DNA of 328 nucleotides, from assembly GCF_003334335.1 (NCBI RefSeq), contig NZ_QOWQ01000220.1, one strand, 5' to 3'. The notes under the pieces are model-generated. The model did no database searches. It had not been told where the DNA came from and saw only the letters and a program-made list of their open reading frames with translations. The DNA comes from Escherichia coli. Its GTDB lineage: Bacteria; Pseudomonadota; Gammaproteobacteria; Enterobacterales; Enterobacteriaceae. The translations under genes were made by a program, and so were the position numbers. Numbering within the stretch: the first letter of the stretch is position 1; each line of letters starts with the position of its first letter. Shown in pieces: positions 1 through 328 of the stretch.

Positions 1-99
1 GGTGAGCCTGTTGAGCATGTTGATGCTGGCAGAGTAATTCTGATGCCCCCCTCAGTGGCAAAAGACATGGTCAGGAGCGGAATGGCCGTTTATGCGTGA
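1..99 (+). CDS. 3' end of a phage head assembly / DNA-packaging accessory protein, lambda gpFI-like (5'-partial; the start lies upstream of the window)
   Basis: Frame 1 is open from the window edge to TGA at 97-99 and translates to GEPVEHVDAGRVILMPPSVAKDMVRSGMAVYA*. This aligns without gaps to my recollection of the lambda gpFI C-terminus (EPV..V..G.......VA..M...G.A), ending at the same distance from the stop. It sits immediately upstream of an FII homologue, as FI does in lambda (E-FI-FII-Z-U-V). Identity is modest, so the assignment leans on synteny. Confidence 0.55.
   Translation, partial: GEPVEHVDAGRVILMPPSVAKDMVRSGMAVYA
73..81 (+). promoter_or_regulatory. Shine-Dalgarno-like ribosome-binding site for the FII-like gene, embedded in the 3' end of the upstream CDS
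   Basis: AGGAGCGGA at 73-81 is purine-rich and complementary to the 16S rRNA 3' end. The AGGAG core (73-77) is 14 nt upstream of the ATG at 92, which is long, but the GGA at 79-81 gives a 10-nt spacing. Sequence-only call. Confidence 0.4.
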
Positions 100-328
100 T
101 TTTGAGAATTCCTTTGATGCTGCCCTTGCCGGGGTGGACAGAACGATTGTTGAAGTGATGGGACTCTGTGCGCAGTTCACCTCGGGGGCACAGTGTGGCA
201 GCGAAGTTCAGGGGGTTTTTGACGATCCGGAGTCGCTGGGGTTTGCCGGTAGCGGGGTCCGTATTGAAGGAAGCAGCCCGTCATTATTTGTGCGGACGGA
301 TACGGTTCGTGCCGTGCGGCGTGGTGAC
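92..328 (+). CDS. FII: Phage head-tail joining (head completion / tail attachment) protein, lambda gpFII family (3'-partial; continues past the window end)
   Basis: ATG at 92-94 is the only start codon in frame 2 after the in-frame stop at 41-43. The frame is open to the window end and translates to MRDFENSFDAALAGVDRTIVEVMGLCAQFTSGAQCGSEVQGVFDDPESLGFAGSGVRIEGSSPSLFVRTDTVRAVRRGD. This is collinear with lambda gpFII as I recall it (MADFDNLFDAA...TSGEQSG...GVFDDPE...AGQGVRVEGSSPSLFVRTDEVRQLRRGD), roughly 60% identical with no gaps, including the near-invariant blocks GVFDDPE and EGSSPSLFVRTD.VR..RRGD. Confidence 0.9.
   Translation, partial: MRDFENSFDAALAGVDRTIVEVMGLCAQFTSGAQCGSEVQGVFDDPESLGFAGSGVRIEGSSPSLFVRTDTVRAVRRGD

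What the first reader, a model, noticed from the sequence alone, without database searches (positions are those of the whole stretch)
92..328. Mosaic conservation in the FII homologue: divergent N-terminal third with two cysteines, near-identical C-terminal block
Compared with lambda gpFII as I recall it, residues 1-40 are substantially substituted, including Cys at residues 26 and 35 (codons 167-169 and 194-196) where lambda has Ser. Residues about 41-79 are almost invariant (GVFDDPE, EGSSPSLFVRTD, RRGD). gpFII is the adaptor between the DNA-filled head and the tail, so the variable portion may track partner specificity (head connector or tail terminator) in this phage lineage. Two cysteines 9 residues apart could form a disulfide or metal contact, but that is speculative.
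Basis: inference. Interest (0 to 1): 0.3.

Follow-up and report, generated by a model that had tools for sequence, protein, structure and literature searches.

The report
Ordinary phage-21-type FII head-tail joining gene
The window holds the end of gene FI and the first 79 codons of an already annotated prophage head-tail joining gene (FII); its uneven similarity to lambda comes from uneven selective constraint along the protein, and the two cysteines are recent one-base variants at two very changeable sites, not a conserved pair.

Summary
The window is 100% identical to an E. coli prophage and is annotated in RefSeq as FI plus a "head-tail joining protein". Bases 92-328 are codons 1-79 of a 117-codon FII gene, the lambda gpFII family.

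Identity to lambda gpFII is 20/40 for residues 1-40, 30/39 for 41-79 and 32/38 for 80-117. Cys26 and Cys35 do replace lambda Ser26 and Ser35.

It is not a recombination mosaic against lambda. Synonymous sites are saturated in both parts, so the conserved block reflects purifying selection (dN/dS about 0.1).

Across the family the N-terminal helix, which clasps gpW, is among the better conserved parts. The variable piece is residues 25-40.

Close relatives carry S/R, R/R, C/R, S/S and R/S at these sites, all joined by single first-base codon changes (AGT/CGT/TGT). C26/R35 occurs in 27 complete genomes.

True DNA-level mosaics with a junction at codon 40/41 exist in relatives, but not here. One natural chimera pairs a lambda-type FII N-terminus with a 21-type gpW, which argues against strict partner specificity.

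Verdict: an ordinary, known gene of low interest.

The parts
1..99 (+). 3' end of FI (DNA-packaging chaperone): the last 32 codons, ...GEPVEHVDAGRVILMPPSVAKDMVRSGMAVYA, and the stop TGA at 97-99
   Evidence: Translation of frame 1. RefSeq CDS gpFI at L001 5731-6099. PHROG 92, E 1.4e-41.
73..77 (+). Shine-Dalgarno-like AGGAG, ending 14 bases before the FII start. This spacing is long, so translational coupling to FI is likely.
   Evidence: Read from the sequence. Function is inferred, not tested.
92..99 (+). 8-base overlap ATGCGTGA of the FII start codon with the FI stop. It is also the junction at which FI alleles are exchanged among relatives whose FII genes are nearly identical.
   Evidence: Annotation. 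Phage 21 has the same overlap. FI of PhiR12_2 and P0013 diverges up to this point, while their FII genes are 93-97% identical to the window's.
92..328 (+). Codons 1-79 of FII (head-tail joining / stopper / head closure Hc1 protein; 117 codons in full)
98..160 (+). Codons 3-23: N-terminal alpha-helix. In lambda this is the ring that holds the gpW beta-barrel.
   Evidence: AlphaFold2 model, helix 3-23. Lambda cryo-EM helix 4-24 (PMC10721106). Residues 1-24 are 14/24 identical to lambda. The helix is relatively conserved family-wide.
164..211 (+). Codons 25-40: strand beta1, loop 30-37 and the start of beta2. This is the most variable segment of the family.
   Evidence: Model strands 25-29 and 38-44. 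Mean entropy 2.50. Six of the ten codons with three or more amino-acid states among seven 21-type genes lie here.
167..169 (+). Codon 26, TGT (Cys). Relatives have AGT (Ser) or CGT/CGC (Arg); lambda has TCA (Ser).
194..196 (+). Codon 35, TGT (Cys). Relatives have CGT (Arg) or AGT/AGC (Ser); lambda has TCA (Ser).
212..232 (+). Codons 41-47, GVFDDPE: a conserved motif. Its 5' edge is the recombination junction seen in relatives P0054 (Salmonella) and P0021.
   Evidence: Nucleotide identity profiles and codon alignments.
227..277 (+). Codons 46-62: the beta-hairpin that inserts into the gpU ring in lambda
   Evidence: PMC10721106. 11/17 identical to lambda. pLDDT below 50 for residues 48-57 in the monomer model, as expected for a segment that orders only on assembly.
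278..328 (+). Codons 63-79: the first part of the second half of the beta-sandwich (PSLFVRTD...RRGD). The window ends here.

Best explanation
The window covers the FI/FII gene junction of a lambda-like E. coli prophage. Its head genes are of the phage 21 type and its tail genes are of a third type. Bases 92-328 encode the first 79 of 117 residues of FII, the hexameric 'stopper' that binds the gpW adaptor ring under the portal and then offers the docking surface for the tail terminator gpU.

The uneven similarity to lambda gpFII is ordinary domain-wise rate variation between two anciently diverged alleles. The gpU-binding hairpin, the beta-sandwich core and the C-terminal loop are under strong purifying selection. 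The N-terminal helix is moderately constrained. The beta1-loop-beta2 segment (residues 25-40) is weakly constrained.

Cys26 and Cys35 are recent, lineage-specific states at two of the most variable sites of the family. They were reached by single first-base changes within NGT codons (Ser AGT, Arg CGT, Cys TGT), and they are not a conserved functional pair.

Shown here: gene identity, identity figures, saturation of synonymous sites, the distribution of residue states, and recombinant relatives. Inferred: that residues 25-40 are weakly constrained because they lie outside the partner interfaces.
For: Identity and context:
- The window is 100% identical to E. coli JE86-ST05, and RefSeq annotates gpFI and a head-tail joining protein there.
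- The gene order is lambda's: W-B-C-D-E-FI-FII-Z-U-V-G-T-H-M-L.
- W, B, C, D and E are 95-99% identical in amino acids to phage 21. FII is 86% identical. Z to M are 66-84% identical to both phage 21 and lambda.

Family membership:
- phmmer to lambda gpFII (1K0H/8K37) gives E 3e-52 over 1-117 without gaps.
- NF049848 is met and PHROG 82 matches.
- The AlphaFold2 model (pLDDT 79) matches 8K37_M with TM 0.82.

Selection rather than exchange:
- Against lambda, pS is 0.86 for codons 2-40 and 0.67 for 41-117. dN/dS is 0.11 for 41-117. Only 26 of 62 conserved residues use the same codon.

Rate variation across the family:
- Mean entropy is 1.69 (1-24), 2.50 (25-41), 2.09 (42-62), 1.90 (63-107) and 2.18 (108-117). 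Position 26 shows 13 residue types and position 35 shows 12.

Cysteines:
- Cluster representatives show C/C 18, R/R 10, S/R 9, C/R 4, R/S 2 and, among 21-type sequences, S/S 2.
- Codon pairs at 26/35 are AGT/CGT (phage 21), CGT/CGT, TGT/CGT, TGT/TGT (window) and AGT/AGT. Overall FII nucleotide identity to the window falls in the order C/C 97%, C/R 95%, R/R 93%, S/R 88%.
- The C26/R35 haplotype is found exactly in 27 complete E. coli genome records.
- Codon 17 shows the same Ser/Arg/Cys set.
Against: - The drop in identity at about residue 40 coincides exactly with a true recombination junction in relatives. An ancient exchange that has since been blurred by divergence therefore cannot be excluded.
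- pS is somewhat higher in codons 2-40 than in 41-117 (0.86 against 0.67). That would also fit a somewhat older split of the N-terminal part.
- Cys35 was seen only together with Cys26, apart from one frameshifted fragment. A functional link is therefore not formally excluded.
- The distance between residues 26, 35 and 101 could not be measured, because no coordinates were available.
Confidence: 0.85

Rival explanations
1. The gene is a recombinant mosaic. A 21-type head-side 5' part (codons 1-40) was joined to a lambda-type tail-side 3' part (codons 41-117) by a crossover in the conserved GVFDDPE-coding stretch.
For: Junctions of exactly this kind exist in relatives. The Salmonella prophage P0054 goes from 47-50% to 100% nucleotide identity with lambda at codon 41 and then carries lambda-type Z (99%) and U (98%). 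P0021 switches from 21-type to lambda-type at the same codon.
Against: For the window gene there is no jump. Nucleotide identity to lambda is 43-67% before codon 41 and 60-80% after it. Synonymous sites are near saturation (pS 0.67) in 41-117, and fewer than half of the conserved residues use the same codon. The whole gene is uniformly 80-97% identical to phage 21 up to codon 110. blastn with the window does not find lambda. The downstream Z and U genes are not lambda-type, at 68% and 80% amino-acid identity.
Confidence: 0.05
2. The divergent N-terminal part has co-evolved with this lineage's gpW (head side), so it encodes partner specificity.
For: The helix 4-24 surrounds the gpW barrel in the lambda virion. 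gpW here is only 50% identical to lambda's, whereas gpU is 80% identical. Across 11 loci, gpW type and FII helix type mostly go together. N15, phi80 and mEp237 have W 81-85% and FII 1-24 75-79% identical to lambda. The 21-type loci have W 46-50% and FII 1-24 58%.
Against: The association is what physical linkage within the head module would give by itself. The gpW hairpin that is actually enclosed is conserved, 10/14 identical with only conservative changes. The helix is among the better conserved parts of FII family-wide, and the truly variable part is 25-40. The chimera P0025 has lambda-type FII residues 9-62 with a 21-type gpW identical to the window prophage's. However, it was found only in prophages and in no isolated phage, so its viability is unproven.
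Confidence: 0.2
3. Cys26 and Cys35 form a disulfide or a metal site that stabilises the neck of this phage lineage.
For: Cys35 occurs almost only together with Cys26. The C/C allele is present in a phage record whose listed host is E. coli K-12 MG1655 (PhiR12_2).
Against: C26/R35 alleles are common, including 27 exact matches in complete genomes. The states form a nested series that fits a single recent origin of Cys35, so the co-occurrence is one event and not co-variation. Both positions are hypervariable family-wide. In the model, residue 26 is at the start of beta1 and residue 35 is in the loop at the far end of the beta1-beta2 hairpin. By topology that puts them apart within a subunit, but this is an inference and no distance was measured. 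Virions assemble in the reducing cytoplasm (general knowledge).
Confidence: 0.04
4. Residues 25-40 are under diversifying selection, for example as an exposed neck surface that is recognised by something. This would explain repeated three-state changes at codons 25, 26, 35, 37, 39 and 40.
For: Six of the ten codons with three or more amino-acid states among seven 21-type genes lie in this 16-codon stretch. dN/dS against phage 21 is 0.44 for codons 2-40 and 0.11 for 41-117.
Against: dN/dS stays below 1. Only seven sequences were compared, recombination was not modelled, and no site test was run. Relaxed constraint explains the same numbers.
Confidence: 0.1

Closest known systems
Bacteriophage lambda gpFII (NP_040589; PDB 1K0H, 2KX4, 8K37, 8XOW)
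   Same: Same length (117 aa), aligned without gaps at 69-70% identity. Same fold (TM 0.82 to 8K37_M). Same gene position between FI and Z. The motifs GVFDDPE, EGSSPSLFVRTD, RRGDTLTI, FWVDRVSPDDGGSC and PPAVNRRR are conserved.
   Different: Half of residues 1-40 differ. Cys replaces Ser at 26 and 35. The start is an ATG that overlaps the FI stop by 8 bases, whereas lambda has a GTG start 11 bases after FI. The partner gpW is only 50% identical.
Phage 21 FII ('distal head completion protein', UMO75425.1) and the 21-type FII of phages 4A7, ev017, 1W, 3W and PhiR57_1
   Same: 86% amino-acid and 88% nucleotide identity, spread evenly along the gene. The same 8-base FI/FII overlap. The head genes W to E are nearly identical.
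   Different: Phage 21 has Ser26/Arg35 (AGT/CGT). Its FI is only 58% identical, and its tail genes are lambda-type (Z 99%, U 97% to lambda), while the window prophage carries a third tail type.
FII of Escherichia phage PhiR12_2 (XSB41715.1) and the RefSeq protein WP_001204198.1
   Same: WP_001204198.1 is the product of the 100%-identical locus. PhiR12_2 FII is 95.7% identical in amino acids and 97% in nucleotides, has Cys26/Cys35, and has the same W, Z and U (99%).
   Different: PhiR12_2 carries a different FI allele, and the exchange point is at the FI/FII overlap.
Stopper / head-completion proteins of other siphophages (R4C stopper 8GTF_M, phage Chi neck 8VHX_F, T1 stopper 9L0E_A)
   Same: Same fold class and the same place in the neck. 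Foldseek E is 1e-4 to 3e-3.
   Different: Only 11-22% sequence identity, so these are not the same sequence family.

Membership tests
Lambda FII head-tail joining protein family (Pfam PF05354 Phage_attach; NCBIfam NF049848 tail_join_FII; PHROG 82 head closure Hc1) | Score above the curated family threshold | tested here: met
   NF049848 equivalog: 53.2 bits against a cut-off of 25, E 2e-14. PHROG 82: E 5.9e-51. PF05354 is precomputed for nearly all homologues.
Lambda FII head-tail joining protein family (Pfam PF05354 Phage_attach; NCBIfam NF049848 tail_join_FII; PHROG 82 head closure Hc1) | Full-length collinear homology to lambda gpFII | tested here: met
   phmmer E 3.2e-52, residues 1-117 against 1-117, no gaps.
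Lambda FII head-tail joining protein family (Pfam PF05354 Phage_attach; NCBIfam NF049848 tail_join_FII; PHROG 82 head closure Hc1) | Fold of assembled gpFII: N-terminal helix, beta-sandwich and inserted hairpin | tested here: met
   AlphaFold2 model with pLDDT 79.3: helix 3-23 and six strands. Foldseek to 8K37_M gives E 1.9e-14, TM 0.82 and rmsd 2.8 A.
Lambda FII head-tail joining protein family (Pfam PF05354 Phage_attach; NCBIfam NF049848 tail_join_FII; PHROG 82 head closure Hc1) | Gene located between FI and Z/U in a lambda-like morphogenesis operon | tested here: met
   The RefSeq feature table of L001 gives the order A, W, B, C, D, E, FI, FII, Z, U, V, G, T, H, M, L.
Lambda FII head-tail joining protein family (Pfam PF05354 Phage_attach; NCBIfam NF049848 tail_join_FII; PHROG 82 head closure Hc1) | Forms a hexameric ring between gpW and gpU and is required for head-tail joining | not testable with these tools
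   Known for lambda from cryo-EM (PMC10721106). Testing it here would need virions or complementation.
Intragenic recombinant (mosaic) gene of lambdoid phages | Abrupt switch of nucleotide identity, including synonymous sites, to a second parent at a definable junction | tested here: not met
   Window against lambda: 43-67% before codon 41 and 60-80% after it, with pS 0.67-0.86. The feature is met in relatives P0054 (Salmonella), P0021 and P0025.
Conserved structural cysteine pair (disulfide or metal ligand) | The two cysteines co-occur and are retained among homologues | tested here: not met
   States at 26/35 among 21-type clusters: C/C 18, R/R 10, S/R 9, C/R 4, R/S 2, S/S 2. C/R occurs in 27 complete genome records. 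In the 38-sequence family alignment, 2 sequences have Cys at 26 and 1 has Cys at 35.
Conserved structural cysteine pair (disulfide or metal ligand) | Geometry compatible with a bond (S-gamma atoms within about 2-3 A, or shared metal coordination) | not testable with these tools
   Neither model nor PDB coordinates are exposed to the scripting tool. Only secondary structure is available: residue 26 in beta1 and residue 35 in loop 30-37.

The most novel reading that the evidence does not exclude
Codon 40/41 of FII, the 5' edge of the GVFDDPE-coding stretch, may be a preferred crossover point. It would split the adaptor into a head-linked unit (the gpW-clasping helix plus beta1 and its loop) and a tail-linked unit (the gpU-binding hairpin, sandwich core and C-loop). 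Head and tail gene modules of lambdoid phages could then reassort while each half of the adaptor stays with its own partner.
Probability: 0.15. Interest if true: 0.35.

Novelty: already known. Interest (0 to 1): 0.1.

Why it matters
It matters little for this gene. FII is one of the best characterised phage neck proteins, and this allele is already annotated and widespread: related sequence occurs in 1,366 of 5,426 complete E. coli genomes.

The useful outcome is negative. The conservation step is not a recent recombination mosaic, and the cysteine pair is not a conserved site.

A by-product has modest value for phage genomics. FI, the FI/FII overlap and codon 40/41 of FII are real exchange points among lambdoid prophages. 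Natural chimeras such as P0025 offer ready-made tests of how specific the gpW-gpFII-gpU interfaces are.

Tried and rejected
- **Cys distances.** I looked for the coordinates of the AlphaFold2 model or of 8K37 in the scripting environment, to measure distances between Cys26, Cys35 and Cys101. None are exposed, so only secondary-structure topology could be used.
- **Haplotype counts.** I tried to count 26/35 haplotypes in complete E. coli genomes through exact matches of 99-base queries. Other polymorphisms in the stretch make the counts lower bounds: only 4 exact matches for the window haplotype and 27 for C/R. I therefore use them only as proof that the haplotypes exist. Member counts of the 90% protein clusters were not used as weights, because members may differ at these two sites.
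- **P0025 in isolated phages.** I searched the phage collection for the P0025 chimera to see whether it occurs in an isolated phage. The best hit was 88.7% identical, so there is none.
- **Literature.** A full-text search for FII + phage 21 + lambda + mosaic found no paper. The 1993 phage 21 head-gene paper and the 2002 gpFII NMR paper are not in the searchable library.
- **RNA families.** Rfam on both strands gave only a sub-threshold snoRNA match (20.9 bits against a gathering score of 50), which I treat as chance.
- **Minus-strand ORFs.** The 42 and 35 aa ORFs on the minus strand lie inside two well-supported plus-strand genes and were not pursued.
- **Decaying pseudogene.** Rejected. The reading frame is intact, dN/dS is 0.1-0.17, and a 96%-identical allele sits in a phage record whose listed host is a laboratory strain.

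Full report
**What the window is.** The 328 bases are 100% identical to a prophage in E. coli JE86-ST05 and three other complete genomes, and 99.7% identical to prophages in O104:H4 outbreak strains. Related sequence is present in 1,366 of 5,426 complete E. coli genomes. RefSeq annotates the region as 'DNA-packaging protein FI' followed by 'head-tail joining protein' (WP_001204198.1). It sits inside a lambda-ordered morphogenesis operon: A, W, B, C, D, E, FI, FII, Z, U, V, G, T, H, M, L. In the window, frame 1 gives the last 32 codons of FI, with the stop TGA at 97-99. The ATG at 92-94 opens FII, so the two genes overlap by 8 bases (ATGCGTGA). Phage 21 has the same overlap. Lambda instead has a GTG start 11 bases after FI. 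The window ends exactly after FII codon 79, and the full gene has 117 codons.

**Check of the observation.** The alignment to lambda gpFII (PDB 1K0H/8K37) is full length and gap-free with E 3e-52, and lambda has Ser at 26 and 35.
- Identity is 20/40 for residues 1-40, 30/39 for 41-79 and 32/38 for 80-117.
- The difference is statistically real: Fisher p = 0.019 inside the window and 0.0012 against the whole C-terminal part.
- 'Almost invariant' is too strong for 77% identity.

**Is it a mosaic?** Not with respect to lambda.
- Nucleotide identity to lambda is 54% (codons 1-40), 68% (41-79) and 74% (80-117).
- Only 26 of the 62 conserved residues in 41-117 use the same codon.
- The proportion of synonymous differences is 0.86 in 2-40 and 0.67 in 41-117, so both are near saturation. 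dN/dS is 0.11 in 41-117.
- A blastn search with the window retrieved phage 21-type genes but not lambda.

The conserved block is therefore kept by purifying selection on the protein and was not acquired by recent exchange. Against phage 21 the gene is evenly 80-97% identical up to codon 110.

The real mosaic structure of this prophage lies elsewhere.
- W, B, C, D and E are 95-99% identical in amino acids to phage 21.
- FI is only 58% identical, and FII is 86%.
- Z to M are 66-84% identical to both phage 21 and lambda, so the tail is of a third type.

**Where the variability sits in the family.** I aligned 38 diverse family members, going down to about 30% identity. The N-terminal segment 1-24 has the lowest mean entropy (1.69). 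The segment 25-41 has the highest (2.50). The others lie in between: 42-62 at 2.09, 63-107 at 1.90 and 108-117 at 2.18. Positions 26 and 35 carry 13 and 12 different residue types. So the 'divergent N-terminal third' is really a moderately diverged helix followed by a hypervariable stretch at 25-40.

**Structure.** An AlphaFold2 model (pLDDT 79) has a helix at 3-23, strands at 25-29 and 38-44 with a loop at 30-37 between them, then four more strands. It matches lambda gpFII in the virion (8K37_M, TM 0.82, rmsd 2.8 A). The lambda cryo-EM paper (PMC10721106) reports that:
- the helix 4-24 forms the ring into which the gpW beta-barrel fits;
- residues 25-41 and 63-107 form the beta-sandwich;
- the hairpin 46-62 inserts into the gpU ring;
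- the C-terminal loop 108-117 binds the gpU O-loop.

Cys26 is thus at the start of beta1 and Cys35 is in the beta1-beta2 loop.

**The cysteines.** Among protein-cluster representatives of the 21-type lineage, the pairs at 26/35 are C/C (18), R/R (10), S/R (9), C/R (4), R/S (2) and S/S (2).

| Allele | Codon 26 / codon 35 |
|---|---|
| Phage 21 | AGT / CGT |
| P0013 | CGT / CGT |
| P0007 | TGT / CGT |
| Window and PhiR12_2 | TGT / TGT |
| P0009 | AGT / AGT |
| P0023 | CGC / AGC |

- Every step between these states is a single first-base change.
- Overall FII nucleotide identity to the window falls in the order C/C 97%, C/R 95%, R/R 93%, S/R 88%. This fits a nested series in which C/C is the most recently derived state.
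- The C26/R35 haplotype occurs exactly in 27 complete E. coli genome records, including O104:H4 strains that also carry the window-type prophage.
- Codon 17 shows the same Ser/Arg/Cys set.
- Cys35 was seen almost only with Cys26, but that amounts to one evolutionary event and is not co-variation.

I could not measure the geometry, because no coordinates are available to the script tool.

**Partner specificity.** The N-terminal helix does touch gpW, and gpW here is only 50% identical to lambda's while gpU is 80% identical. Across 11 loci the gpW type and the FII helix type mostly agree. Four things weaken the inference.
1. Linkage within the head module would give that association anyway.
2. 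The gpW hairpin 23-36, the part actually enclosed by the FII ring, is the best conserved part of gpW. It is 10/14 identical and all four changes are conservative, against 5/18 in helix 2. The gpU O-loop is 11/13 identical.
3. A natural chimera, P0025, has lambda-type nucleotide sequence for FII codons 11-50 (87-100% identity to lambda), in a background whose gpW is 100% identical to the window prophage's gpW. It was read on 24 contigs, but I found it only in prophages, so its viability is unproven.
4. Phage 21, a viable phage, combines a 21-type FII hairpin (8/17 identical to lambda) with a gpU 97% identical to lambda's.

**What is interesting nearby.**
- A Salmonella prophage (P0054, L006) goes from 47-50% to 100% nucleotide identity with lambda exactly at codon 41. 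It then continues with lambda-type Z (99%) and U (98%).
- P0021 (L012) switches from 21-type to lambda-type at the same codon.
- FI alleles are exchanged among relatives with nearly identical FII genes, and that junction is at the FI/FII overlap.

FII and FI therefore sit in the head-tail module exchange zone. Mosaic junctions at gene and domain boundaries are a long-known property of lambdoid phages (my own knowledge; not retrieved).

**Other checks.** Within the 21-type clade, six of the ten codons with three or more amino-acid states lie in 25-40. dN/dS against phage 21 is 0.44 for codons 2-40 and 0.11 for 41-117. This fits relaxed constraint and does not demonstrate positive selection. Rfam finds nothing above threshold on either strand. 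The short minus-strand ORFs have no support.

**Verdict.** This is a correctly recognised, already annotated FII gene of the phage 21 type. The conservation gradient is real but ordinary. The word 'mosaic' does not apply to this allele against lambda. The cysteine pair is a recent variant at hypervariable sites. Partner tracking remains a weak possibility that is untested here.

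Noticed in passing
window 1-99; L001 5731-6099, L011 7236-7652, L016 172-588: FI is exchanged as a cassette among prophages whose FII genes are 93-97% identical. PhiR12_2 and P0013 carry a different FI allele, and the divergence stops at the FI-stop/FII-start overlap (TATGCGTGATTTT). Against phage 21, FI is only 58% identical in amino acids, although E (96%) and FII (86%) flank it.
   Followed up: partly
L006 8001-8354 (Salmonella enterica LS483477.1) and L012 374-727: These are true intragenic FII mosaics with a junction at codon 40/41. 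In P0054, nucleotide identity to lambda jumps from about 50% to 100%, and lambda-type Z and U follow. P0021 switches from 21-type to lambda-type at the same codon, but its Z and U are only 45-51% identical to lambda's.
   Followed up: yes
L004 and L005 8001-8354 (E. coli assemblies GCA_039636505.1 and GCA_012794755.1): The FII chimera P0025 is a lambda-type patch (about codons 11-58) inside a 21/window-type gene, next to a gpW identical to the window prophage's. It was read on 24 contigs. No isolated phage in the phage collection carries it.
   Followed up: partly
L001 6811-6880 (inside gene Z): A 70-base island is shared exactly, apart from one base, by this prophage, phage 21 and lambda. The rest of Z is about 70% identical. 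The island encodes the conserved gpZ motif FIQ.LKNGRWHVMQRVAGKNRYPIDVVKIP. Identity at synonymous sites suggests either a conversion patch or a constraint at the nucleotide level.
   Followed up: partly
NZ_CP023061.1, NZ_CP009050.1 and NZ_CP023531.1: The same O104:H4-type genomes hold two lambdoid prophages with different FII alleles. One is window-like (C26/C35, 99.7% identical) and the other is C26/R35, at a different chromosomal position. This gives an opportunity for exchange between co-resident prophages.
   Followed up: no
FII codon 17 (window 140-142): Codon 17 shows the same Ser/Arg/Cys three-state variation (AGT/AGC, AGA, TGT) as codons 26 and 35. The window has the rare Arg (AGA), which is why its exact 99-base haplotype is found in only 4 complete genomes.
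   Followed up: partly
protein P0003: A 169-aa protein named 'head-tail joining protein [Bacillus thuringiensis Sbt003]' carries a sequence identical to lambda gpFII over residues 1-117. This is most likely lambda DNA contamination of that assembly.
   Followed up: no
L001 6460-11912: The tail genes Z to M of this prophage are 66-84% identical in amino acids to both lambda and phage 21, whose tails are nearly identical to each other. The prophage thus joins a 21-type head to a third tail type. Its gpZ is 177 aa, against 192 aa in lambda, and lacks the basic RRRRRKKGQRSSLKGGG stretch.
   Followed up: partly
window 1-45, + strand: There is a weak Rfam match to the eukaryotic snoRNA snoR442 (20.9 bits; gathering score 50; E 0.023). 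I treat it as chance.
   Followed up: yes
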